Shown one piece after another: positions 12,072-28,243 of a stretch of DNA of 60,879 bases. A model generated the notes under the pieces. That model saw nothing but the letters and a program-made list of their open reading frames with translations. It ran no database searches and was not told where the DNA came from. Both the position numbers and the translations under genes were made by a program. Position 1 is the first letter of the stretch, and the number at the start of each line of letters is the position of its first letter. This DNA comes from Pelomyxa schiedti (lineage: Eukaryota > Protista > Evosea), in the NCBI GenBank assembly GCA_020536535.1, contig JAHLWZ010000883.1, forward strand, positions 1-60,879, read 5' to 3'.

Positions 12072-12911
12072 CACTTACAGTGGAAGCCACAACTGCTTCA
12101 CTGCTGGAACTCCCGCCTTTACTCCATATACTCCAAGTGTAGTGTGCGCATGTAAACTGCGTAACTTGGGACAGCCAGAAAGATTAAGCTAAGGAATGTT
12201 AGAGTAGTGCAGCCAAGGAAAGACAAGCCTGAATTGCAGCTTTTTCATATGTCGGCTGACCATAATAGTCACTCCCCGATTCATAATGGGCTGAACTCAA
12301 ATGAAGAACTTCTAAATTAGGACACCCTAACTCCAAAGACCGATTTCCCTACTATGTGTTTGGGTGGAGAACTTGTCGGAGAAAGTTTACATTGTGAACA
12401 ACGTCGTCACAATCGACACTACAGTCCATTGCCCAGAAATAAATGAGGGATTTGGCAGCAAACTTCCTGGGAATGGTGAATGAGTCCAGTCTCAGAGTCG
12501 TCAAAAAAGGGAAGTGGTTGATTAAAGCATCAATAGAAGCAAGTTTGTGTGCAGATATATGTCGCACTGTCCTGGAAGACAGTCCCAGGGATCCCATGCC
12601 AGCATTAAATCCCGCAGGAAATTGAACAACAGTGTAATTTTGGCGCTAAAGGGAAGAAGTTTACACAAGTAAACACATACCAAATACAAAATAAACAAGC
12701 AAACAAAGGGAGGGGAAAAAAAAAAAAAAAAAAAACAAAAGCTAACCGAAGTAACTGACGTTGCAGAATCGTCTATAACAAGGCGAAGGAGGAAAGGCTG
12801 GCACAGGGCGTATGTGTTGTGGCTGCATAGGGCCAGCTGCAACACGTCGCAGCTGGACAAGTACCGCAACATGAACGTGCACACGTCGTTGTGCTGCAAC
12901 AACACCTCCAT
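8570..12911 (-). CDS. F-box-like / leucine-rich repeat protein, multi-exon
   Basis: N-terminal F-box-like segment (MLRYLSSCDVLQLALCS) followed by many LxxLxL-type repeats across consecutive minus-strand exons, and a low-complexity basic C-terminus. That all exons form one gene is inferred. Confidence 0.65.
12016..12070. repeat. Poly(A) tract, 55 nt (poly-U in an intron of the minus-strand LRR gene)
   Basis: Directly visible homopolymer. Confidence 0.95.
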
Positions 12912-13233
12912 CTCTCACACACCACCCAAGGGTTTGTTTTTTTCTTTTTTGTGTTTCGTGGAGGTCCGCGTTTCGTGGCTGTTGAGGTTTTTCGGTTTCG
13001 GCCGTTGTTCTCGAGTGGGATGGTTCAAATAATCTTAACCAGAGGACTCTGTGGTAGTAACACCGGGTCTGAGTCCTTGTTATTTGCAGGTAATTGGCAT
13101 CCCTCCTCCTTTGGTCATGCAGAGATTCAACAATCACCTCTAATTATTATGATGGCCGAAATTGGGGAAAAGAACAAGACAGAAAAAAAACACAGAAAAC
13201 ACCCAAGAAAAAAAAAAAAGAAACGGTTTTGAC

Positions 13234-15132
13234 ATGTCGAACGACTCAGTTGTAATCAAAGTGACGATGGATGGCAATCAATGCCAAGCAGTGGTGCCTT
13301 CGTCTTTGTCCTACCCGGATCTTGTTAACTGGGTCAAGTCCGCTTTTAAGCTACCACCCACGTTCCCTGTTGCTCTCTCTTACAGAGGTTTTTTTTTTTT
13401 TTTTCCCCTTGTGTCGTGTTGCTTGCACAATAACAATCACTTAAACCCGTTTTTTTTTTTTTCCTTCACCAGATGATGAAGGAGATAAAGTGACATTGTC
13501 TACCACAAACGAACTAGCTACGGCAATGCAGATTGCCAAACAACAGGGAGCGGCATCTCTTGACGTCACTTTGTCACAAATGATGCCGAGGACCACAGCC
13601 TCGTCGCTGTTTCCCACGTCGTCGCCAGTAGGCCTCAGTGTCAGTCCTCCCACAAGTCTACCAACCACCTTTCCTTCGTTTTCTTCGCCCGGATCTTTTA
13701 CGGCTGTACCTCCAGTCAATCCTCTTACTCTGTCCATCTCGCAGCAACCGTTTGTTCATGGGTTCCCAACGGTGGTTTGGGGTTCCCTGGTGCCAAAGGG
13801 TGTTAACGCCCACGCGGCAATGGCAGCAATTTCTGCATCAAATTCTGTTGGCGCTGCCTGTGACAACTTACGCCAAGCGGTGGCCAGGGCTATTTCCGGA
13901 AAACCAGGTGCATATTATTCTGTGTTGAATGTTTTGGTCAGTGACTGACAACCTTTGCTCAGCAGTGGAGCATGATGCCAAATGCGACTCTTGTCAACAG
14001 CGTATTCTCGGGATATGCTACCATTGTACACAGTGCCCAGACTATGTAAGGCTCCAGTATCTCCCTCTTTTAATGACAATTTGCAGGACTTATGCGAAAA
14101 ATGTGAGTGTATGAATGGGGGCAATGGCCAACTTCATAATGCAGATCATATCTTTACAAAACATTGGAGCCCGAGACCACAACTGTACTGTAGTTTTGTT
14201 TTGCGCAACACTTTAACATTCCATCTTAGGCCCGAACATATTCCTGAAGCTTCAGTCCCGAACTCAACACAACCAACACCAAGTCAAATTCCAACATTCG
14301 CGCCCCCAATTGCAACGCCTATCATTCCCGCTACATTCCCTTCTCCTTTTCTACCTGCCCCACCAATAGCAACCCCCATCTTATCTCCTTCTCCTATTAC
14401 TCCGTCAATGTTTTTCCCGAGTTATGTTGCGCCACCGGATTCCGATTCCAGTCCTACGTTCTCTGCCCAGTTTCTGTCTGACAAAACCATCCCAGTAAAC
14501 CAACCCTCTTATTTAAGCGTTCTAACACACACCAGGAGGGTACTATTATTGACAGGAGCAAGCCACAATTAATCAAACTGTGGCGTTTAAAGAATACAGG
14601 CTCTAACGCATGGCCCGAAGGTACTTTCAATGTGGTACTCTTTTATTTACAGTGTTTCCCATTCAGGGTGCAAACTCGTTTTTGCTGAAGGCCAGCCACC
14701 CGGGTGCCGCACGCGGCTGTGTGTGCCACAAGCAGAGCCTGGTGCTCAAGTGGATGTTGGTGTTCAGATTATGACCCCCTCTGCTCCAGGGAAATACAAG
14801 ACAGTATGGAGGCTTGTTGACAACCACGGAAGAGCATTTGGCCCAGCACTGAGTGCTTCCTATGTGGTTCCAGGTAGTGACATGAGTGGAAGTGGGATTG
14901 CAACACCCCACTACCCGCAAGATAATGCCCAGGCTTTCCCCGCCAAGCACGAAGAAATGTTGTGCCAACTGGAAGGTATATCTCGCCCTCTAAACACTAC
15001 CTACCCCACCCTTACCATCTCGTTTCAGAAATGGGCTTCCACAACAGAGAATTACTAGTCCAACTTCTGGCACAGTATGGCTCTGTTCAGGACGTTGTTT
15101 CAGCTCTACAGGGAGGGGATTGTGGGATGTAA
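13234..15132 (+). CDS. NBR1/p62-like autophagy receptor (PB1-ZZ-FW-UBA)
   Basis: PB1 (LSYR/DDEGDKVTLST), ZZ finger (CDSCQQRILGICYHCTQCPDY/DLCEKC), FW/Ig-like domain (KLWRLKNTGSNAWP; PGKYKTVWRL..GRAFG), UBA (LE/EMGFHNRE). Junctions read through GT-AG introns. Confidence 0.85.
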
Positions 15133-15248
15133 AATTTGATTGATTGTTTCGATGGTTTCCAACCAAACGCAACGACAGCCTTCTTTCTAGTTTTCGTAGT
15201 AACCGCAATGTCAGTTAGAAAAAGAAAAATTGCATTCTGTGTGTTGTG

Positions 15249-17104
15249 ATGAGTTGTGAACACACGAAGGCCTTTGAGTTGTTAAGGCAGTTGGTATTCT
15301 AGTTCTCTACCCCTTTGCACTTCCCAAACATGGTTTGTTAACTGGCCGTTTTCCCTAAGCTAGGTTCAGAGTGTTGTGGCAGAGAACAAGGTGGGTGTCA
15401 TGACATTGTGGGGGCAGACAATACAATTGGGGAACCAACGTTTTTGGCTTGTCTCCCAGTTTTGTTGAAAAAGTCCCTCTCTGTGGGTGCGTTGGGGCGC
15501 TTCATGAAACGTATGTAGACATTAACCAAGTATGAGTAGTATATAGAAACACTAAGCTACCTTTTATTTCTGATTCATTTAGTATGCAGTGCTGAGAACT
15601 GCGGCCCTGGGAAGTTAGAATGCCTCTTGAGCCTTGTATCCCAGCAACCACATGTTCCAAACTCAGGCAGCACATGTGACATATGCTCTGTATGTCAAGC
15701 TTACATTGAGTGTATTTTGAAACATGGTAGGTCAACACCAGCTTTGAGTTTGGGTTCTCATCTAGACAGGCAACAGACCAATAACCCTCAGTGAAGAGGA
15801 GCGGACAGAGTTAGAAGATATTATGTCCCAATGGATCTCATACCTTTCAAGTGCCAAATCGGTCTATGTGTCCCAAGAAAAGCTCATGGAAGAAGTTCAA
15901 TTGTCAAAATCTCTATCTTTTATTGGAGATAAGTCCCTGAAGGAGTGGGCGCTGTCTCTCTCACAGTGCTGGGGGTCACACTACAGGACCATAAGAAACA
16001 ATATGTCTCCAAATTGTCCACTTCTTCATACTCCGAACCCATATGTTGCTACTCAAAACGACACATGGTTTTACTGGGACTCTTTTTTTGTTGTTCTGGG
16101 ATTATTGGTTGTTCCTACCCATTTAATTTTACCATCTTAACTACATTTCCTAGGAGTGCCAAATGTTTGAGACCTCCGGGGGAACTATCCAGAATCTATT
16201 GAGGTGCATTTCTCAGTTTAAGAAAGTTCCCTGTGGTGGATCAGTCGAGATGATGGACTTCACGCACCCTCCACTTCTTCCACTTATGGTAAACGAGTGG
16301 TGCAAGCGTAATTTTTTCCAGGGAAAGTTTGAAGAGGCTCAAAATCTTGCCAGAATTGCTTTACCACTGTTAGAGATAGAACATACCAGTTGGATTTCCA
16401 CTGGGGGAACTCATTGCCTTGCTCAGTGGGCTGGAGGACCTCCACCAGGATATGGATCGTTTTGTGAACGCCCGCATTGCACATCAATTAGTCTGAACAC
16501 GATCATTTTCGTATCAGAGGTCTGTATAGCTGACCTAGGCAGTCTAGTTCATCAGGCCAGTGAATACTCTAAGTTTTGGGAATATGCCCGTCAACGAGTG
16601 AGTGTCCCAGAACAATGTTTTTCTTTCATTTATCTTCAGGCAATAGACATTGGAACACATCTATGGAATGAAGATGAAGTGTGCTGGGAGGATATCTGTC
16701 CGCCGGAAGCAGGGCGTCCTAGCACGTGGAACGAGTACGCAATGCAACTAATTCCGCTGTGGGCTCAGTCATATTTGAGTCAGCCACCATGGGGTCTTCA
16801 TCCAAACCACCATCTATCTCGTGTTCGTGCTATTCGAAAGCTCTTTGATAATGAGGAGGAAGTTCCATACAGTTTTGTTAAATCCACCTGTAAAGATGCT
16901 CTCAACTGGATGGAGCAGGAAGATGCACAACCATGGTTGATGTGGTTTGTGGCTCATTCACTGCGACGAATGTCCCCGCAAGTGTCGAAGTCTTTTGTAA
17001 GTGACTGGCTTCAATCATTTTATCAGAAAGCCCCAGCAAGACAATACTCGCCTTGCACAGTGGGACTACTGTTAAATTTGCTTAGCGAAAATGCTGACTT
17101 AATG
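15249..17104 (+). CDS. Degenerate trehalase (GH37)-like domain, probably spliced to the downstream nucleotidyltransferase
   Basis: LLHTPNPYV..FYWDSFFVVLGLL, NLLRCISQF..VP..HPPLLPLMV and SLN..F..E follow the GH37 motif order. Intron 16108-16153 joins ORFs 15823 and 16163. Upstream exons were read back to ATG 15249. Confidence 0.7.
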
Positions 17105-17147
17105 GTAAGCCAAAAGAGAACGTACTCTATGAATAAATTTAGTCCAG

Positions 17148-17969
17148 GAATTCCCTATAAGTGACCCGCTTATTTCTACTTTTATTATGACCCTGGCAAG
17201 TAATCTCCGCCGAGTTCTTGGAACTGGACTTCATGGTGTCTATCTGACAGGCTCCGCTGCAACTGGATCATACATCCACGGAGTTAGTGATATTGATATT
17301 ATCTGTGTTTGCAATGACCGGCTGTCTTCAGACCGTAAGGCCGCGGTTTCTATGTGTGTGATCAGCACTTCATCTGCAATGCACATTGAGAAAGTCGAAG
17401 TGGACGTTTATTCGCTTTCGGCAGTGCAAGAAGGGTCACCTGAATTTGAGGTGAAGGTAACCTACTTCGGAGAGAACAAAGACTCCAGTATCACCAATAG
17501 TCTGGAAGAGTACCTTCGGCAAGGGGGCAAGGACTTTTGGCTTGTTATGGACTATGAAAACACATACCTGAATGGAGTGGCAGTTATGGGACCTCCTGCC
17601 AGGAGTATTTTCTCTAGAGTAAATCATGGCAAAATGGTTCAGTCCATCACTGGTGCCATTACGTTACTTCTGGAGAGAGTATCCCAGCCCACAGTGAAAG
17701 TCGACATGCTATGCAGTGCAATACTACACATCTGCAGAGGGTGGTACTGGATTGTGACAGGCCTTCTATCTCCAAAGGTGTTCTGTGCTAAATGGGCCTT
17801 GCTTATGCTCGTTGGTTCAGCAGAATCATGCCCACAAAACTTGGAATTCCACAGTGTTGTTTCTTCTGCGGTGCAGTCAAGGACTTGTCCAACAACCCAC
17901 CTCAGTCTTCCCTCTGAAACAGTTGCATCATTTGCCCGCTATGTTCTTAGTGTAATCCCAAACTACTGA
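17148..17969 (+). CDS. AadA/ANT-like nucleotidyltransferase (Pol-beta NTase plus DUF4111-like helical domain)
   Basis: LRRVLGTGLHGVYLTGSAATGSY..GVSDIDII (GS..DxD motif), third acidic strand VEVDV, GVAVMGPPARSIF, and ILHICRGWY..TG..SPK..AKWAL. Confidence 0.8.
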   Translation, partial: EFPISDPLISTFIMTLASNLRRVLGTGLHGVYLTGSAATGSYIHGVSDIDIICVCNDRLSSDRKAAVSMCVISTSSAMHIEKVEVDVYSLSAVQEGSPEFEVKVTYFGENKDSSITNSLEEYLRQGGKDFWLVMDYENTYLNGVAVMGPPARSIFSRVNHGKMVQSITGAITLLLERVSQPTVKVDMLCSAILHICRGWYWIVTGLLSPKVFCAKWALLMLVGSAESCPQNLEFHSVVSSAVQSRTCPTTHLSLPSETVASFARYVLSVIPNY

Positions 17970-18065
17970 GGTGTTGTTTTGGGGCACAAAAACGCAAGAA
18001 TGTCAAAATTTACTCGTTTCTTATTCGGGTACTGGCTATTGCTGTTCTTTACAAACATAGTTTCT

Positions 18066-19259
18066 TTACAAACGGAACTTCTGCACCTGCTGGCTCTTTG
18101 TTCTCCCCACCTCTCTCAAGCACTTCTGCATGAGCCTGCCGTTGGCCGGCGCGTTGTAGTTAATCGCCGGCCGGCCATTTCTAACCCCACCAAGAGCCAC
18201 AGGCCTCGGGGCCACGGGCCCCGGCCCCGCCCCCAGCCGCCGCCTCCTGGGCTCCGGGGCCCCGCCCAGCGTCTTGGTCGTGCTCTTGCGCATCATCTCG
18301 TCCTCGGCGCGGGACTTCATCCGCTTGGCCAGCAGGTCCCGCTCGGACTCGCGGCCGCGCACGTCGGCCCAGTACGCGGACCGCCACGCCGCCGCGTCGG
18401 GCTGGCTGCCCGCGTCGCTGTCCATCATGACGCCGTTGCGGTGGCACAGCGCCGCCCAGTGCCTGCACGTGTCCAGGGTCCCGGGGGCCAGCGAGCCCTC
18501 CAGCCGCAGCAGCTGCGCCGGGCTGCAGTGGATCAGCAGCCGGTCGATGAGCTCCGCCGGGAGCTGGCACACGCCCTCGAGCCGCATCGCCGCCATGTTG
18601 TCCATCACGCACGCCAGCGCCATGTCTGCCAGCCGGGGAATCCCTGCGTCGTCGGCTTCGTTGCTGCTGCTGTTGTTGTTGGAAGCGGCGGGGCTGTCGT
18701 CCGAGGTGCTCGATGGTATGGTTAGACTGAGCGGGGGAGGAGGGGTTGAGGTGGCACGCAGCCTTGTTGGTGGCGGCGGCATGGAATTGGTATTATGGGT
18801 TGCTGCTGTTGCTGCTGTTGCTGTTGCTGGTGTGGTGCTCACAACCTCGGTCACAACAAATGAAGTTGTCCTTGCAGGGGTAGTCGTCGGAGTGGTTGTG
18901 TTCGTGCTAACTGGGTTCGGGCGACCCGGCGGCTTGCGCTTATGGGAGACTATCGTGCTCAGGATGTTGTGGTACACGTTCCTCGGCACCTGTTGTTCGG
19001 GGGCCGAGTGGACCTGCAGAGGCCTAGGCTTGTGTTGTTGGCCCACAAGTCCGGTTTGGTTGCTCTGGCTACTTTGTGGCGGCTGGGATGAAACAGTGGC
19101 CCTTGCAGCGGACACGGTACGCGCCTGGGGCGACGTGCCGCGAGTAATGGTGTTCCTGTTGACTACAACAGCGGAGGTCGTTCTGGGTTGCTGATTATGG
19201 GTGGGCAGGGGGCCTCGAGCAGGCGGTGGTGTTGCACGTCGGAGTTGCGGGGAGGCCAT
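18066..19259 (-). CDS. Elongin A-like protein (intronless)
   Basis: BC-box-like IPRLADMALACV, then LPAELIDRLLIHCSPAQLLRLE..DT..HW..LC..WRSAY, preceded by a low-complexity N-terminus. Confidence 0.75.
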   Translation of the reverse strand: MASPQLRRATPPPARGPLPTHNQQPRTTSAVVVNRNTITRGTSPQARTVSAARATVSSQPPQSSQSNQTGLVGQQHKPRPLQVHSAPEQQVPRNVYHNILSTIVSHKRKPPGRPNPVSTNTTTPTTTPARTTSFVVTEVVSTTPATATAATAATHNTNSMPPPPTRLRATSTPPPPLSLTIPSSTSDDSPAASNNNSSSNEADDAGIPRLADMALACVMDNMAAMRLEGVCQLPAELIDRLLIHCSPAQLLRLEGSLAPGTLDTCRHWAALCHRNGVMMDSDAGSQPDAAAWRSAYWADVRGRESERDLLAKRMKSRAEDEMMRKSTTKTLGGAPEPRRRRLGAGPGPVAPRPVALGGVRNGRPAINYNAPANGRLMQKCLREVGRTKSQQVQKFRL

Positions 19260-19329
19260 TGTTGCGAAAAAAATTTTGTTTTTAATTAATCAGAGCCCCA
19301 AGTTGGGCGAAATCTACAACGTTGTAGAT

Positions 19330-20267
19330 TTAGGAGTCCGGGTACCAGTCGGCATCCTCGGAGAGCTTGCATACTCCGTTGGTGTTGCCATACTGCTTCA
19401 TTGCAGGAGATGTCCACCCGCCAAAGGCAACAAAGTCATTGAAGTTCTTTACGTTGTTCCACGACGCGTACCTGTAATTTAAGGGTGCGAAGGGTTAAAG
19501 ATTGTGGTGGGTAGAAAATTGAGGGAGTTGCTTATTTTTTTATGTATTTGAGGTAGATTGGGGGGGGGGGGGGGGGGGGGGGGGGGCGAAGAAGCATACC
19601 AGAGCGGGAGGGTGTTTGCGGAGGTGCACGATCCCATAATCACTCCCCACTCGTATTTGCTGGAATATACACCCATTGAGAGGTTCAGGGAATAGCCGGC
19701 CGTCATTAGATCCTCCAAGAACTCGCAGTTGAGGTAAAACTTTGTGGAAGAGGTCTCCCATGAGCAACCCGTGGAGGGGTTCTCCTCTATATCGAACCAC
19801 ACCATGCCATATTCAGCCCCAGCCTCAGCTAGATAGTCAACCATATCCGAGACCTGTTGTTTGGCAGACAATTCTCCGGTAGCAGCTGCGGGAAAAAGTG
19901 TATACTTTTAGGGGAAACCAAAAGGAATGGCAAAGGGGGGTGCAGTACCTTTGCCATAACAGGGGAAGTGGTATACATCACGGTACTTAATCCCAGCATT
20001 CTTTGCGTTGAGCAGTGTGGGAGGTGCGTTTGTGTCCACAGCACCATAGGAGTGGTATGCCCTCACTATGGCAAAAGAATAGGAGTAGTTTGTGACCAGA
20101 CAAGAAAAAGTGTCCTGGCTTCATTTGGGTTTGTTTTGGGGTGAGTTTAGAAACGCAGGTATTTGATTTTACCTTATCAGTGAGGCTACATCCAAACCAC
20201 TAGCACACTCGGACACCGTTGCCGACAGAAGCACAATGCACGCCGTAACCAAAACCGAACTCTTCAT
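19330..20267 (-). CDS. Secreted GH25 (Lys1-like, protist-type) lysozyme
   Basis: Signal peptide MKSSVLVTACIVLL; GLDV; FAIVRAYHSYGAVD; DVYHFPC; MVWFDIE; GVYSSKYEW; PLWYA; FGGWTSPAMKQY. Confidence 0.85.
19560..19586. repeat. Poly(G) tract, 27 nt, in a lysozyme intron
   Basis: Directly visible homopolymer. Confidence 0.95.
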
Positions 20268-20383
20268 CAACTCCTTTTTAGAGAGAGTTTTTATTGCGGT
20301 TTTCGAGATGGTGCACTTCTTCTTCGAAGATTAACTGAAGCGCTTCTATTCCGTATCGGTGCGGTTGCTTCGCGTTGGAGGGA

Positions 20384-22392
20384 ATGCACCAGGAGAGTAT
20401 GCAGTTTTGTTTTTTTTTATCCCGTTTGGAGCCTGTCGTTTAAACACCCACAGGGCCGTGCCGTCCCACGTGCAGGTGGCGTGTGTGCAGCCTCATCGTG
20501 GTCTCTGTTGTGTTCTTGTCTCTGCAAATCGTGCTGCTCGGTCTATGGAGGCCCTATACTCCCACAATCGCGCCCCCCGGGCGCGCTGCAACCACATCCG
20601 GCTCCGCGGACGCCAAGGGCATCGCCAATTTCCTTGTATCCCTCATATCTTCCGTTCACAGTGACCACAGCCCACCAAACCTACAGCAACAAATCCAACA
20701 ACAAAGCAAGCAGGAACAGAAACAAACCCAGGAGCAGGAACAAAAGTCAATACAGCAACAACAAATAGCAGTAACCGGAATTCACATTGCTGAAGGAGAC
20801 TTGGGCAACGACTCGAGCCTGGTTCCGGTTATTGATGCGTTGGCAGAAAACCGTTTCCGCGTGGTGGATGCTTGGTTCGAGTCAGACCCCTGCTCGGGGA
20901 AGCCGGTGAAAGCTTCTTTCCTGGTGTTTCACACAGCCGGTCTGGTCCATCTCGCGTTCCAGTGTCACTTCCTCTTGAAAGTCACCTCCGAATCGAGCAC
21001 GGGTCGAAGCCTGGCAACGACTTTCGCCAACTTGAGTGCCACTCACAACAAGGAATTCGTGGAATTCCACACAGTGACCGCGTCGAGGCTTGCGCACCAG
21101 CCTGCCTCCGCGCCCTCGATCAATGTGAGATCGTGCCCAATTCCGGCAGTTGTTGCCGCGGCCCTTCCGTCCATGGACCCACAATTGTGGAACAGCAGTT
21201 TGACTGATGCAAGGCCGAATGTGTATGTTAGAATCCATCCGCCGGCATCCTGGGGTGCATTTGGTGACAAGCCGGGAGCCTCTCAGTGGTTTCATCTGCT
21301 CGTTGAAAAGTCGAGTCCAGCAGCAACGGCAAACATTTCTAACCCAAATTGCCACTATCCACCGTGGATGGCTCACTACCAATTGAGTGCTGTAATTATG
21401 TTCAGAATATTTGCAGAGGACTCTTTCCACATCACGTTGTATGAATTAATTGAATGGATGGAATCCCTTTTCCTGGCAGGTACTCCAAATCTTCCGTCAA
21501 ACACGGAAAACACCCTACCTTCTTCATTCTGACTGGCAACAAGGTGTAGAACACATATACGCATATGACAACTACATGTTTTTACAAGAATCTCAATTAC
21601 CGCAACTCGACTATTATATTAAAAGAGGGCTCCTCACTTACCATCCATGGCCATACAAAAAGGCACTGAAATACGCCGCAACACAAAAAATGGCCTACAC
21701 ACATTGCCTGTACAAGTACCACTACACATCCGAGTGGCAATGGCAAGCAGATGTGGATGAGTACCCTCTGATACATGCTGATCAGACCCCCGGCTTTTTG
21801 CTGCGCTTTGCACAGCGCCAACCTAGAGGCGTTTACAACGTTGGTACTGTGAATTCCCTTATTCCATTCTCAATAAAGTTCAACAGCTCCTGTTTTACTC
21901 TGTTTTCTATGGAAGAAACATCTCACAGAGCCAACTTCCCTCCCCAGAAGAATGCAATAACCAAAATTCGTGCCACCCATGGTGCAGTAGACCAACTCTT
22001 ATTGAGAGATTCCACATACGGGCTAACCCAATGAGATCACTCAGGTTTGTTTCACATGCACACCATCAGATTCCACCCGCAGTCCCAATCTAATCTACAT
22101 CTTTCAACTGATAATTCAAATAAGATGGAAACCTCTGTATAAACCAGCAGTTATGTCTGAGGCAGCTGTACACTTAATGACTGGGGCTGTTGGGCACGAT
22201 ATTCCATTTGAAGAGGGCTGGCTTCTTCATTACTGGGGAGACCGCTGTAGCGTGAGTGAATGTCGCATTAGGGATGAGAATACATCCTCTGTGTGGGAGG
22301 TAACACTCAGACAGACACTGGAAAGGAAATTTTGTAATATCTCAGCCGCGGACTCGTTGTTGTTGTTCAATATAACTCGTGCTAATACATAA
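20384..22392 (+). CDS. Type II membrane glycosyltransferase, GT92/GT-A-like
   Basis: N-terminal TM segment; LIEWME..LA/GVEHIYAYDN; AYTHCLYKY..SEWQWQADVDEY (DxDE motif). Confidence 0.75.
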
Positions 22393-22416
22393 TTTTTTTT
22401 TGTTTGTTTACTCCCG

Positions 22417-23438
22417 TTACAAATCACACACACGCCTTGCTTTGGCAGCTAGGTATGGGGGTCTAAGAGCTCTTGTTGCAACACTGAGCCCTTTTTCTAT
22501 ATTCTCTGGTGTGAGGCCAGCATAGTATTTTCCAGACACCTTGTGCCACAAGTGTAGTCTGTTGGAAGAATTAATTAGTGTGGGATGGGGGAAATGCATG
22601 ACTACTTGCACCCAAGAATTCGGAAGTTCCGAAGTAATCGAAACTGGGAGACCTTAAATCTGACAAAATCAGATCTATGGGCTGGTGCAGAAGTTACCAC
22701 GTCTCCAGCTTTTGAGGGGATAGTCACCAAAATTACTTCATTGATCAGTTCCAGGGCTGCACTCCACCAACACCCTGTAGCGATGCCTGGAAAGGCAGAG
22801 TCCTGGACATAGAGCCGGATTCTAGCATTTTCTCCTTGATGAAGTCGGATGGCCTGAATTGCAAGGTACTCAATGAAACTTGAGAAAAACCTAAATTAAA
22901 AAAAAAACCAATGAAGAGTCAAATCACAACCTTAGAGAGTGTGGATCTGTCTTTATCAAAAAGAAAGTGTCTGGAATTCCCGGCTTGGTTTTCGCCTCTG
23001 GCACAGGAAATTCCCCAGCAGTTCCCTTGCATGTGGTGTTGTAGTAAACGTCAAAGTACTGGTCTGAACGAACAGAGACGTACACGGGATCCATGGTAAT
23101 GACGCCCCTTGGAATGCGGGACTGTGCAACATAGCTCGACGATGAAGATGAAGACGCATACGCAGACTCTGAAAGAATTTCTGCTGTTGCTTGTCGACTT
23201 TTCTGGAAGTCGAAAGCGAGACGTTGTGGAGATGAAGAGAGTAGAGAGACTGCATGCCCAGAGTGCATATGATGACAGTTGCTATAGCCACAACGAAAAC
23301 CCCTTTGGAAGCACGCATCGCCCAGTTGCTGTAGCCACAACGGAATCCAGAATTTCGTGTTTGTGCAAGGACCTTTCCCGATTTGTCAGAAGGGTGTGTC
23401 GACTGAGACCCCTTGCTGCCTTGTCTCCCTGCTCCCAT
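22417..23438 (-). pseudogene. GT32-like glycosyltransferase, apparently lacking the DxD core
   Basis: TM anchor (GVFVVAIATVIICTL); IPDTFFLI; FIEYLAIQAI; GCWW; AHRSDFVRF; then directly LHLW. No GGxYxDxD segment, and the TM and catalytic parts lie in different frames. Confidence 0.5.
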
Positions 23439-23750
23439 CTCACTTTCACCCCCAAGGGGGGGAAGAAACTTTCCATGAGTCTGCAGAGAACCAGGACGAG
23501 ATAAATTTTTGATGTGCCGTTCCTTCCATCAAGATTACAAAAGAAAAGGGGATGTTCAAGCGATTCGGTGGGGGGCCACAGCCAGTGGCGGCCAACACCA
23601 CGACGAAGGATACACACGATACGTCGTCTGTCAGCAGCCACGATGTAAACTCACTTGACCTTTCGTAAAGTGAAACCACACCAACTCACGCGCACGCACA
23701 CACACAAAAAAAAGGCGGAACCGGTACCGCGACGTGGAGACGAGGAAATA

Positions 23751-26700
23751 ATGGAAGAGCTGAGCCCCCTGTATGACCACGAGCTGTCTGATGTGGTGAC
23801 TTTCGTACTCGACAAAGTGCTGGGAGGAGAGTCTGGGGGTTCTGCAGGGGCGCCGCCGCCGTCTGCTTCTTCCGATGAAAGCATAGACGGAACTTGGTTG
23901 GAAAATGTATTGTGGGAGCACGAGAGGGCGTGCAATGTGGTGGACACCGAGTTGTGCAAAAAGGTTGAGGAAAACTACTCTGAATTTGGTGTGGCTCATT
24001 TCATTTTATCACATAACTTTGTACTTACCACAGTGCCCACAATACAAAATAAAATCAAATACAAATAGTGGAAGGCATGCAACGTATTCACGAGGTTGGA
24101 ATAAATCTCCAGCAGTCAGGGATAATGTGTCAAGTGGGACAGAGGTCCCTAACAAGAGCAAAGAATGATCTAGCTTGCTCATGCATCAAGTTGACTGCTT
24201 TATATAGGAGAAAATTGCGCTACACTGTGTGTGATGTAATTACTGCCCTTGTATCTCTCAGATATCACCTCAGGCCATGATGACAAGACTTCAATCAATT
24301 TCAGCCACAGTTAAGAAAATGCAAGAATTAGAAATTGTCATGAGGTAGAAAACCATCAGATTTCTTGTTCTCACTGTATGCAGGGAGGGAGACAACCCCA
24401 GAGCAATCATGTTGTGCTCTGAACTTCAGGCCATCACTGGTGGAGAATTAGTTCCACCAATACCAGAACTTAGAGGCATCAAATGTGTGAGTCTCATGGC
24501 TAAGACTCTTGAGCACAAGAACACACTACTACAAGTTACCTTCTTTGATACAGGATGGATGTCTGGTTAAACTTGCACAGGAAAGACTTGATGCCTCCCT
24601 GTACAAATCATGCAAAGCATTTTCTCCAGAAACCTACGAAACAGTCCTCAAAGCGTAAATTTTAGATCACAAGAAATGTGTCACTTTTCTAAATAGTGCT
24701 TTGTAGCTACCAAACCCTACGGAATATGTACCAAGTACTTGAAAAAGTCCAGCGATGCTTTATGGATTCAGTTGATGAGCAAATGAAACATGTCATGCTG
24801 ACTTTTATACTCTCTGATGCCTCAAAGGATCCTGAATCCCTCAAGAGGTACCTTTGTCTGTGATTGCACCTATTGATGTAGAATTGTATTACAACAGGGC
24901 AGATATTCCTCACCTACAAGGACTTGTCAAACTATATGATTTTGCCAATTGTTTGATAACAATTTTGGAAACTGAAGCTGAAGTGATGTGGAACTATTAC
25001 TCAATGAAAAAATGGCATGAAGACTACCTGAAACTGGTGTAAGTGCTTCTCATTCGGCAACTGGATTGCTAATAGGATTTTATTCTTAAGAAATGAAGAG
25101 CAAGACAAAAATATGCAAGAGTTACTTGATGGCCTTGAGAGGCATAGAAAGAGACTGTGGGATAAAATGCAGAAGAGAGTTGCAGAAATGCTAGATTCTG
25201 TTCCCTTGAGTCGGTTTCAGGTAACAACTTTATCATTTTGATTTTGTTTTGGAAATTCTCTAGGTTGACGATGTTTGCAGAATGCTGGAAGCTGTCCAAA
25301 AGGCAACTTTCCTTTAAAAAGATTTTACACTTATACAAGTCCAGTTCGCTGAAATAGGAATGGAATTTAGCCAGACTTCAACCAGCTCGCTTGTGCAAAC
25401 ACTAAAGAGGCAAGGTAAAATGTACTTCGAGGCTTACCACAAATCAAGCTTAGAGGTAAGCTTCGCCAGTTGAGTAGTAATTTAACTGTCCATATTTTAG
25501 GATATCAAAGCAATGATTGGGAACGAGTCCTGGTCTAGAACACCAGTACAGATATCCGTTTTTGGTTTGTTCTATGAGTGGATGGGGTTCTGAAGTTGAC
25601 AGCACCTAGACATTCCAAATATTAAGCCGTTTGTCAATTCTGGTGGGAATTCCCAGTCCGATACCTCAACACATACTGTTCGCACTGATCAGAGTGTCTT
25701 TGTCTCCTGGAAAGCGAACGGCAACCCTATCAAGATGTTCTCCCAAGAGATGGCACAACAAGGCAAGTTTTTGTGCTTAATTTGTTTCTTCATAGTTTTT
25801 AATGTAATGATTGATTTGTGTTGGCTTAGACCAAGAGGACGAAGCTGAGCATGATGACACCGAAGAAAAGGAAAATCCAGAGCTTAAGAAGGATTGGATA
25901 GAAGAAGATGATGCCATTGAGCAAGAACAACGTACCATCTGCGTTTATTAAATCAAATTTCAACACAGATATTTGCAGACACAAAAAAGGTGGATACTAG
26001 TAACAATGTATCTGAGCAGATCATTGCAACAGTCACTATCAACATAGCACGTACTATTGGCAAGTATTTACATATGCTCCGTGTTTTGGAATCCATAAAT
26101 CTGGATGTATTTGGAGGAATCACACAAATATTCGACTTTTACGTGAGGTTTTTCTGATACCAGCTTGTATTAAAAGAACTCTAGGTGCACAGTATTTACT
26201 CATTTTTTGGAGGAGTACCAGGTCAAGCACAAGACACGGCATCAACAGTGTCTGCAGGTAAATACTCCCTCTTCTTTGTACTTGCCCTAACCAGAAAATG
26301 TCTAGGCAAGTCCCTCCTTGGGTTGTTGACCAACTTCCAAATCGTCAAATCAACACAGCAACCCACTCCTGCAACAGAGTCTATTCCAAAAGCTTCAGGT
26401 AGTGTGCATAGACCACAGACAAGCAAATGATTGAAGCTAATTATTTCCTCAGAGTTTTTGGGACTATCAAAACTTTCTTCCATGATTGATATACACAATC
26501 CTAATACCTTATACTCTCTGGCCCATAGAATAGTCGGAATTGACTCGCTCCTTTTCCTCAAGCACGTTTTGATAACTGTCAAGCCTGCGTTGCTTGTACC
26601 TCTTATCATTTCTTTCTTCTCGTCTGAATATATGCACAGTGTGTGTTTAAGGGAAACCCTGGACCAGTGAACAAATTTTATAGCGATTCTGTTGATGTTA

Positions 26701-28243
26701 TTGATACCCTTCGCTCAGTCATGTACAGAAATGTTTCTACTGCCTTACTGAATGTGTGTTGCCCGCAGCTCTTTTAAATCGCCCTAACAACTTTCAGTTG
26801 GATAACCTTCCTGCAATGATTTTCCGTACACGGTGGGAGGGATCAGACTCTGAGCATGCCTATGTTAGTGAGTTCTTTCTTTTTTTCTTTACTTATTGGT
26901 GATTAATCTCCCTGTGAATGACTTCAATCAGACGTTGTGCAAAAAGAGGTGACACAGTTTTCACACAAATTTGAAGGAATTTGTGCCGAAGTCAAGGTTC
27001 CACAGCCCACTAGTCGCCTTATTTGGGAGCATGTGTGCTTACATCTCATGGATTTGCTTCTTGATGGGTTCTCACGTGTAACAAAGGTGAATTCGACTTT
27101 CTGTAACATGTTGCTTAGTTTTTGTACTCAACGAAACATAGTGCCCCTTTGAGTCCAGAGCAATAATGTCCCTCGATTTGCAGAGCATAGTAGGTACCCT
27201 CGAGACCCTGTCACATATCAAGTTCTTTCCCCGTACAATAACCTCTGTATAACAAAAAATTTATCCAAGGCCGCCACCAGGCGCTAAAATTGTAAATGAT
27301 TATATAAAGGCATTTTATCTGGCAGAAAATGAGTTTGTGCCTTGGTGCAACAGTCACACTGTGTGCATATTATCTATTCAGCACTGTCCTTATTAACGAA
27401 TAGGAGTTCACTCAACGACAACTAGTCAATCTTTTCCAGTGCAGTGCCAGTTATCAGACTAAAAGCAGGCAGCACAAAGATGTACAGGTTGTGATCGAAG
27501 GTATTTGCAAAGGACGAGTACAGCGTCCTTTGTGGTACGTTTTGCAAGCACAACAGCATTCAAATACAGCCGACCTGCGGCTCCTTGATTTGATGCAACC
27601 AACTATTAATACCAGTACTACCACACCAACAAACACCCCGGCTTCTGCTTCCTCTTCTACGCTCCGACTCCCTTCAGCTCCTGTTGGTGTCCGAAGAAAC
27701 AGTTTTGATGAGACCGCTGCAAATGAAAATCCAGCTGAGGAAGAAAACGAACTGCCATTCTCCCAAACTGTTCATGCCGCGCTTGCTGCCGGAGAGCCAC
27801 TGAACTCTCCAAACCCAGGTCATGACGCAACACCAACGGCCACCACATCCGGGTCTGCATCAACAACCCCAAACACAACTGCCATCACTCCAGCTTCAAC
27901 AACAACACCCACATCAACAGAAACACCATCCACCAGCACACCCACACCCACAGCACTACCCACACCGGCCACAACAACACCCACACCAACCGCCACAGCA
28001 CCAGCTTCCGTACCACCACCCACACCATCCAGAACATTGACGGGTCTATCCAGACTGACAGCAATTGCAACCGCACTGCCCAGTGTCACCACCTCTGGCA
28101 CACAGCCACCCAGGACATCAACAAACCCAACAGCACCCCCAACACCAAGCCACGCCGCTTCATCACTCTTTTCTACTCTGGGATTCGGCATTGGCAGAAA
28201 CACAACAACACCTGCTTCTCCGGCTAGAAGGTCACACACATAA
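23751..28243 (+). CDS. VPS50: Syndetin / VPS50 (EARP subunit) with a Thr/Pro-rich tail
   Basis: N-terminal ENYSEF/VEGMQRIHE; C-terminal LLDGFSRVTK/C..ESRAIMSLDLQ and VNDYIKAFYL..EF..W...H/EFTQRQLVNL. Confidence 0.8.

What the first reader, a model, noticed from the sequence alone, without database searches (positions are those of the whole stretch)
15249..17969. Degenerate trehalase fused by splicing to an AadA-like nucleotidyltransferase
Seen: the two ORFs are only 22 nt apart. A GTAAGC donor at 17105 and a CAG acceptor at 17147 define a 43-nt intron, typical for this genome, that joins ..ENADLM to EFPISDPLISTFIMTLASNLRRVLG.. exactly in frame and supplies an N-terminal helix for the NTase. 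Known: GH37 catalysis uses the Asp in SGWDFSSRW and a Glu in the C-terminal GGGEY region. Both segments appear absent, and NG.R.YY..RSQPP has become CGGSVEMMDFTHPP, while the NTase GS..DxD..D/E motif is intact. Inference: a pseudo-trehalase barrel acting as a sugar-binding module for nucleotidylation of a sugar or aminoglycoside-like compound. I know of no described protein with this architecture. A nearer AG at 17142 would give a trehalase-only product, so alternative splicing could switch the fusion on or off.
Basis: partly seen in the sequence, partly recalled or inferred. Interest (0 to 1): 0.78.

Follow-up and report, generated by a model that had tools for sequence, protein, structure and literature searches.

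The report
Dead trehalase fused to nucleotidyltransferase
In a free-living anaerobic amoeba, a trehalase gene that has lost both catalytic acids is likely spliced onto a bacterial-type nucleotide-transferring enzyme with an intact ATP site, giving a two-part protein whose join still lacks RNA proof and whose target is likely not the antibiotics or trehalose first suggested.

Summary
A 43-nt GT..AG intron (17105-17147) joins a GH37 trehalase-like frame in frame to an AadA-fold nucleotidyltransferase (NTase) exon. The public Pelomyxa schiedti model (739 aa) uses the same join, but it is a prediction. Neither of two RNA runs covers the junction or the trehalase half. The barrel is predicted to fold like a trehalase (Z 34) yet lacks both catalytic acids, keeps 4 of 15 TreA active-site positions and has two active-site loops cut out. 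The NTase keeps 7 of 9 AadA ATP/Mg residues but 0 of 4 streptomycin/spectinomycin determinants, so it is not an ANT(3'')/(9). No second protein with both domains appeared among the 149 best hits (of 799). No trehalase lay beside 52 bacterial relatives of the NTase. Best reading: a lineage-specific fusion of a structural pseudo-trehalase and an active NTase of unknown acceptor (0.5). Main rival: two overlapping genes, the NTase starting at ATG 17102 just before the same intron (0.2). New architecture from known parts, a single case; interest 0.48.

The parts
15249..15293 (+). Inferred, no homology or RNA support
   Evidence: Open spliced frame with a 66-nt GTATTC..AAG intron at 15294-15359; 116 nt after the upstream gene's stop, like the 96-nt gap at the 3' side
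15360..15510 (+). Possible exon; its last 7 nt (ATG 15504) are the start of the public 739-aa model
   Evidence: GC 0.50
15511..15582 (+). Predicted intron, 72 nt, GTATGT..TAG
15583..15726 (+). Exon: N-terminal region of the trehalase-like domain, Cys-rich, low model confidence
15727..15769 (+). Predicted intron, 43 nt; uses a CAG 4 nt past a TAG, the same layout as the junction intron
   Evidence: needed for the frame
15770..16107 (+). Exon: trehalase-like, up to the degenerate signature 1 (YWDS kept, PGGRFRE lost)
   Evidence: Pfam Trehalase E 3.8e-6
16108..16153 (+). Predicted intron, 46 nt, weak GTTGTT donor (16111-16156 is an equal-length alternative)
16154..16597 (+). Exon: barrel core. 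Asn196, Arg205, Gln207, Arg277, Glu279 equivalents lost; about 50-residue loop deletion; catalytic Asp312 aligned to Ser265 (16457-16459)
16598..16639 (+). Predicted intron, 42 nt, GTGAGT..CAG; removal restores the trehalase alignment
16640..17104 (+). Exon: C-terminal half of the barrel. EKY/GGGEY loop cut to 37 residues against 60-93 in relatives; no Asp or Glu between residues 434 and 460. Ends in ATG 17102-17104
17105..17147 (+). Junction intron, 43 nt, GTAAGC..CAG; alternative AG at 17142. Predicted, not seen in RNA
   Evidence: no bridging contig
17148..17969 (+). Intron-free exon: AadA-fold nucleotidyltransferase, 273 aa. Ser502 (17253), Ser513, Asp514 (17289), Asp516, Glu550 (17397), Arg663 (17736), Lys676 (17775) match AadA Ser36, Ser46, Asp47, Asp49, Glu87, Arg192, Lys205
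   Evidence: RNA-library contigs cover 17287-17952 and 17673-17969

Best explanation
The locus is likely one spliced gene whose product joins a trehalase-like barrel that lacks both catalytic acids to an AadA-fold nucleotidyltransferase that keeps its ATP and magnesium site, and the enzyme half would transfer AMP to a hydroxyl group of an unknown acceptor, likely not streptomycin or spectinomycin, while the barrel likely serves as a folded scaffold or regulatory module rather than a trehalose clamp. Shown: the open frames, splice signals, lost and kept residues. Predicted: both folds. Inferred: a bacterial-type NTase gene landed directly behind a eukaryote-type trehalase copy; a phase-0 intron joined the end of the barrel to the natural start of the NTase; the barrel then lost its active-site loops but kept its core helices. 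Two-metal transfer with Glu550 as base is inferred from AadA.
For: In-frame 43-nt intron within the 41-80 nt range of 12 RNA-backed introns, with intron-like GC. The donor sits where the barrel ends and the acceptor where relatives of the NTase begin. The public model makes the same join. As two genes the reading frames would overlap and the NTase promoter would lie in the last barrel exon, whereas the flanking gaps are 116 and 96 nt. The dead barrel has no stop in 466 codons; neutral substitution left 0 of 300 runs stop-free at 80%, 60% and 30% identity and 4 of 300 at 90%, and its best hits are about 30% identical. An upstream position in a needed fusion explains this. Losses lean to charged/polar columns (7 of 26 kept) over hydrophobic ones (13 of 23 kept; no significance test run). 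Models: barrel pLDDT 81.6, Z 34.2, rmsd 4.0 over 413 residues to Arabidopsis trehalase; NTase pLDDT 94.3, best match AadA, TM 0.71, E 2.3e-12. 7 of 9 ATP/Mg residues kept, 0 of 4 drug determinants (PMC6065190). Two further runs carry the whole stretch in one unspliced contig, so it is not a mis-join of this one assembly.
Against: No RNA contig crosses the junction or covers the trehalase half; only 17287-17969 is covered. The public model probably comes from Augustus/PASA/EVM (PMC8887013 methods passage; the link to this record is my inference) and I cannot tell whether RNA backed this intron. No second protein with both domains: 0 of 149 best hits (649 weaker hits not listed), none in two 'longer' searches, none in metagenome scans. 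The barrel model was folded on a trehalase alignment, so its fold is partly built in. Residue mapping is by sequence alignment only. The junction intron skips a TAG 5 nt upstream; the closest skipped AGs among RNA-backed introns are 8 and 10 nt. The barrel's branch is very long (2.66 against a median of 0.71), which also fits relaxed constraint. The scaffold role has no direct evidence.
Confidence: 0.5

Rival explanations
1. Two overlapping genes. The NTase has its own start at ATG 17102-17104 as a one-codon first exon before the same intron, and the pseudo-trehalase ends alone at 17164 (intron retained) or 17160 (AG 17142). The gene predictor merged them.
For: The codon before the donor is ATG, and Met plus the exon gives 37 residues up to the GS serine, the usual length in stand-alone relatives (most 31-46). 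RNA-library contigs cover only the NTase. All 32 NTase hits lack a trehalase domain, and the Cryptococcus cluster members are 260-325 aa stand-alone proteins.
Against: Needs a promoter and 5' UTR inside a coding exon and same-strand overlap. The NTase contig start at 17287 has no template-switch loose end, though such ends are seen at 13241, 13743 and 20058, so it marks no start; 3'-biased partial cover is common here, and the neighbouring elongin-A-like gene has none. A lone dead trehalase then needs its own reason to stay open.
Confidence: 0.2
2. The fusion is real but the barrel is a passenger: the NTase borrowed the trehalase gene's promoter and start, so the frame must stay open while the barrel drifts without a role.
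For: Only 33 of 69 conserved columns kept against 43-69 in 80 relatives; longest branch in the tree; Cys content 4.5% against a 1.2% median; no conserved partner elsewhere. An open frame is required in any upstream half, functional or not.
Against: The deletions fall on the two active-site loops and spare the helices; core hydrophobic columns are kept more often than charged ones; a useless 466-residue leader could have been deleted in frame.
Confidence: 0.17
3. One reading: the barrel still binds a sugar or sugar-like compound (glucose, trehalose, a validamycin-like inhibitor) and presents it to, or allosterically controls, the NTase.
For: The 4 kept positions (Trp159, Asp160, Gly310, Trp447) are, from recall of the TreA structure, on the catalytic-subsite glucose side, so a one-sugar pocket may survive. 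Phosphorylase kinase subunits carry inactive glucoamylase-like barrels that likely bind acarbose (PMC10978961 passages). AadA-fold enzymes act on sugar-like hydroxyls.
Against: Arg152, Asn196, Arg205, Gln207, Arg277, Glu279, Glu511, Phe518 and Trp520 equivalents are lost and the covering loops are deleted. 0 of 4 aminoglycoside determinants kept. 0 of 52 bacterial loci of one related NTase subgroup have a trehalase within up to 4 kb.
Confidence: 0.13

Closest known systems
GH37 trehalases (PF01204): Arabidopsis TRE1 (7E9U/7E9X), E. coli TreA (2JF4/2JJB)
   Same: Pfam 95 bits; predicted barrel Z 34.2 and 32.8; YWDS, PP, LN, WN and W447 anchors kept.
   Different: Asp312 and Glu496 absent, most ligand residues lost, two loops deleted, no clear signal peptide, and followed by an NTase.
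AadA / ANT(3'')(9) and ANT(9) aminoglycoside adenylyltransferases (5LPA, 7UY4, 6XZ0)
   Same: Two-domain NTP_transf_2 + AadA_C fold, TM 0.71; Ser36, Ser46, Asp47, Asp49, Glu87, Arg192, Lys205 kept.
   Different: Trp112, Trp173, Asp182 and His/Asn185 not kept; about 26% identity; NCBIfam scores far below cut-offs.
Uncharacterised AadA_C (DUF4111) NTases of Actinomycetota, Chloroflexota and Bacillota, with stand-alone members in Cryptococcus
   Same: Best sequence hits (profile 148 bits; Atlas 0.97); share Trp for Asp130 (22 of 31) and Arg for Tyr231 (18 of 31). PMC6065190 section 9 describes 122 such enzymes as likely having another function.
   Different: They are stand-alone proteins of about 250 aa; the amoeba domain is a long branch with no supported sister.
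Phosphorylase kinase alpha/beta subunits (inactive glucoamylase-like barrels)
   Same: An analogy only: a glycosidase-fold barrel without detectable hydrolase activity acting beside a transferase (PMC10978961).
   Different: GH15-like, separate subunits of a kinase complex; no homology to this protein was tested.

Membership tests
GH37 trehalase | Family profile match and (alpha/alpha)6 barrel | tested here: met
   Pfam PF01204 95.2 bits, cut-off 21; Z 34.2, rmsd 4.0, 413 aligned, model built on a trehalase alignment
GH37 trehalase | Catalytic acid Asp312 in SGWD | tested here: not met
   Aligned to Ser265 or His251 by the pairwise match; the only acid in 244-278 is Glu268. Sequence alignment only
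GH37 trehalase | Catalytic base Glu496 (EKY) and the following GGGEY loop | tested here: not met
   Aligned to Gln440, loop shortened to 37 against 60-93 in 49 of 80 relatives scored; no acid in 434-460
GH37 trehalase | Signature motifs PGGRFxExYxWDxY and QWDxPNxWxP (PMC9450901) | tested here: not met
   Only YWD of motif 1 and one Trp and the last Pro region of motif 2 remain
GH37 trehalase | Trehalose hydrolysis | not testable with these tools
   needs an assay
ANT(3'')(9)/ANT(9) aminoglycoside adenylyltransferase | NTP_transf_2 + AadA_C fold | tested here: met
ANT(3'')(9)/ANT(9) aminoglycoside adenylyltransferase | Mg/ATP residues Ser36, Ser46, Asp47, Asp49, Glu87, Asp130, Arg192, Lys205, Tyr231 | tested here: met
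   7 of 9 kept; Asp130 is Trp597 and Tyr231 is Arg711, as in most of 31 relatives (list from PMC6065190)
ANT(3'')(9)/ANT(9) aminoglycoside adenylyltransferase | Drug determinants Trp112, Asp182, His/Asn185 (and Trp173 for streptomycin) | tested here: not met
   Phe573 (Asn576 in the pairwise match), Met653, Ser656, Leu640; an Asp lies one residue off at 652; criteria from PMC6065190 section 9
ANT(3'')(9)/ANT(9) aminoglycoside adenylyltransferase | NCBIfam curated cut-off | tested here: not met
   best 54.5 bits against 193 (PRK13746); ANT_3pp_I 41 against 375
Single fused gene | A transcript spanning 17104/17148 together with upstream exons | tested here: inconclusive
   two low-depth RNA runs of one sample, contigs only, no cover at 15152-17286

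The most novel reading that the evidence does not exclude
A GH37 pseudoenzyme whose surviving one-sugar pocket senses or holds a carbohydrate ligand and steers a horizontally acquired AMP-transferase: a sugar-sensing or sugar-detoxifying AMPylator built from a dead trehalase, possibly switchable by the nearby acceptor at 17142. It would also give a first handle on the acceptor of the large uncharacterised AadA_C group.
Probability: 0.13. Interest if true: 0.78.

Novelty: new variant of a known kind. Interest (0 to 1): 0.48.

Why it matters
If the transcript is fused, it is a domain pairing I found nowhere else (0 of 149 best hits; no paper in the searches) and a clear case of a GH37 trehalase turned pseudoenzyme. 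It shows how an intron-rich eukaryote can bolt a bacterial-type enzyme onto an old gene with one short intron. It also points to the AadA-like enzymes that lack the antibiotic determinants, whose real substrates are unknown. Its weight is limited because it is one gene in one species, with no junction reads and no known substrate.

Tried and rejected
RNA junction: runs X3 and X4 (contigs, one sample) give no cover at 15152-17286, which proves nothing either way. No whole genome is held, so paralogues (an intact trehalase, other NTases) could not be sought. Word-index searches with the NTase found only the protein itself or nothing. Metagenome scans: none for the NTase; one hit for a barrel exon, L003, was a chance 8-residue match in a membrane-transporter-like frame and was dropped. 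A mixed alignment of both families (A1) misaligned the halves and was not used, so no full-length model was made. A two-domain complex prediction could not be run because the queue was full, and the wide VIA search of the NTase model was not run because the machine was busy; domain packing is therefore untested. Trees gave no supported sister for either domain, so no donor is claimed. Bacterial neighbourhoods of one NTase subgroup showed no trehalase (0 of 52) and no shared neighbour in more than 5 loci once other frames over the NTase gene are set aside. The AATAAA inside the junction intron was rejected as a sign of a separate 3' end, because the RNA-backed intron 21840-21886 holds one too. 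Template-switch ends gave no usable start motif. The Atlas search with the whole protein gave only trehalase-type clusters under 0.8. The supplements of PMC8887013 (2 files) do not mention this gene or trehalase. Earlier-findings look-ups returned nothing.

Full report
Source and setting. A protein search returned the window's own product as a named record, hypothetical protein Pelo_13433 of Pelomyxa schiedti, 739 aa, one member in its cluster. Mapping it back gives exons 15504-15510, 15583-15726, 15770-16107, 16154-16597, 16640-17104 and 17148-17969. It lies between an NBR1-like gene (stop 15132) and a convergent elongin-A-like gene (stop 18066). Runs X1 and X2 each hold the whole stretch in one unspliced contig, with no listed difference from the window between 15407 and 17969. 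One of them may be the window's own source, so this argues only against a local mis-assembly or a stray bacterial piece.

The junction. The intron is 43 nt with a near-consensus donor and GC 0.35. Twelve GT-AG introns backed by RNA contigs in 12300-27800 are 41-80 nt (12 of 15 listed joints, 3 non-canonical dropped, 4 not shown). The acceptor falls where stand-alone relatives begin: 29 of 32 have at least 30 residues up to the GS serine, and only 1 has 25 or fewer, so a start at ATG 17187 (23 residues) is unlikely. The splice is therefore probably real. But the codon before the donor is ATG, so the same splice would also serve an independent NTase gene. RNA does not decide: X3 and X4 cover 17287-17952 and 17673-17969 only, without a template-switch end, and nothing of the barrel. 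The alternative AG at 17142 gives MSRNSL* from a 38-nt intron, shorter than all 12 references. The genome paper names Augustus, PASA and EVM for gene prediction and reports 7.43 introns per gene (PMC8887013, passages; both supplements searched with no mention of this gene). I infer the record comes from that pipeline, so its agreement is a second prediction, not proof.

The barrel. Pfam Trehalase scores 95 bits. The model (85-sequence trehalase alignment, pLDDT 81.6, pTM 0.85) matches Arabidopsis trehalase at Z 34.2, rmsd 4.0, 413 residues and E. coli TreA at Z 32.8; the alignment biases it towards that fold. Against 80 relatives it keeps 33 of 69 conserved columns (relatives 43-69, TreA 60), or 29 of 72 by a gap-free count, split as 7 of 26 charged/polar, 9 of 21 Gly/Pro and 13 of 23 hydrophobic. 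Asp312 and Glu496 are the catalytic pair (PMC9450901 and PMC7658089, passages; PMC7411730, passages, describes the two subsites). They align to Ser265 and Gln440. The span holding the first is 72 residues against a median of 122 (55 of 80 scored, minimum 75); the span holding the second is 37 against 60-93 (49 of 80 scored); 434-460 has no acidic residue. Glu268 is the one acid near the first site and its position in space was not checked. Of 15 TreA active-site positions (list recalled, mapping) only Trp159, Asp160, Gly310 and Trp447 remain. The barrel is very likely inactive, and a trehalose site is unlikely; a one-sugar pocket is not excluded. The frame has no stop in 466 codons, whereas neutral substitution gave 0 of 300 stop-free runs at 80% identity or below. 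That shows continued translation, not that the barrel itself has a role.

The NTase. The model is confident (pLDDT 94.3) and its 13 best matches are AadA and ANT(9) chains, TM 0.62-0.71. PMC6065190 (passages and section 9) lists the ATP/Mg residues and the drug determinants. Mapped through a plasmid AadA, 7 of 9 of the former and 0 of 4 of the latter are kept. The two changed ATP residues follow the majority of 31 uncharacterised relatives. That paper suggests such enzymes have another function. The best hits are unnamed or actinobacterial proteins at 25-35% identity, with a stand-alone cluster in Cryptococcus. A bacterial origin is inferred; the tree names no donor.

Is the pairing found elsewhere? 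The HMMER scan of 1.84 billion representatives gave 799 hits; of the 149 best besides itself, 117 were trehalases and 32 NTases, and none scored with both profiles. A true second fusion should have summed both scores and ranked near the top. Two searches of longer proteins returned only this one (weak tests). In 52 bacterial loci of one related subgroup no trehalase lay within up to 4 kb; that subgroup is not shown to be the closest. Literature searches, seen as listings only, for trehalase + nucleotidyltransferase + fusion (5 papers), inactive/trehalase-like/GH37 (3 of 5 listed), DUF4111 (6), Archamoebae + trehalase (0) and Pelomyxa + transfer + fusion (1) showed no such protein; the library lacks most subscription papers. 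An analogy exists in phosphorylase kinase, whose glucoamylase-like barrels show no activity (PMC10978961, passages).

Verdict. One fused gene is more likely than not (about 0.8 summed over three readings, against 0.2 for two genes), mainly from gene packing, the exact fit of the intron to both domain ends and the open dead barrel. It works like an AadA-type two-metal AMP transferase but is not a member of ANT(3'')(9)/ANT(9), and it descends from GH37 but fails the catalytic tests. New architecture from known parts, one case, junction unproven: interest 0.48.

Noticed in passing
window 13234-15132 (+): NBR1-like gene (Pfam N_BRCA1_IG, E 1.2e-11) with six RNA-backed introns; its transcript runs to at least 15151.
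   Followed up: partly
window 18066-19289 (-): Elongin-A-domain gene (E 2e-7) with a long low-complexity N-terminus, GC-rich; no RNA-contig cover in either run.
   Followed up: partly
window 19479-20058 (-): Gene with the deepest RNA contigs in the stretch and a template-switch end at 20058. Looks like a GH25 lysozyme from recall; the one fragment scanned had no Pfam hit.
   Followed up: partly
window 15675-15695 (+): CxxCxxC motif at residues 34-40 of the barrel's low-confidence N-terminus; the barrel has 21 Cys in 466 residues against a 1.2% median in relatives. A metal site is possible but untested.
   Followed up: no
window 15249-15510 (+): The longer start fits gene packing and exon-like GC but adds no trehalase profile score. 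Run X2 differs from the window at 15365 and 15406 in this stretch.
   Followed up: partly
window 16108-16156 (+): Two donor/acceptor pairs 3 nt apart give the same intron length (46 nt) and differ by one residue; both donors are weak.
   Followed up: no
window 22466-23424: Several diverged contigs with loose ends lie here in RNA and DNA runs, suggesting a repeated or paralogous sequence.
   Followed up: no
P0143 (834 aa): Another fusion of this NTase family: the NTase at the N-terminus followed by what look like glycosyltransferase family 2 domains (recalled from motifs, not scanned). It is a separate hint that the family can pair with carbohydrate-active domains.
   Followed up: no
P0066 cluster: Stand-alone members of the same NTase group occur in Cryptococcus, so other eukaryotes carry it too.
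   Followed up: no
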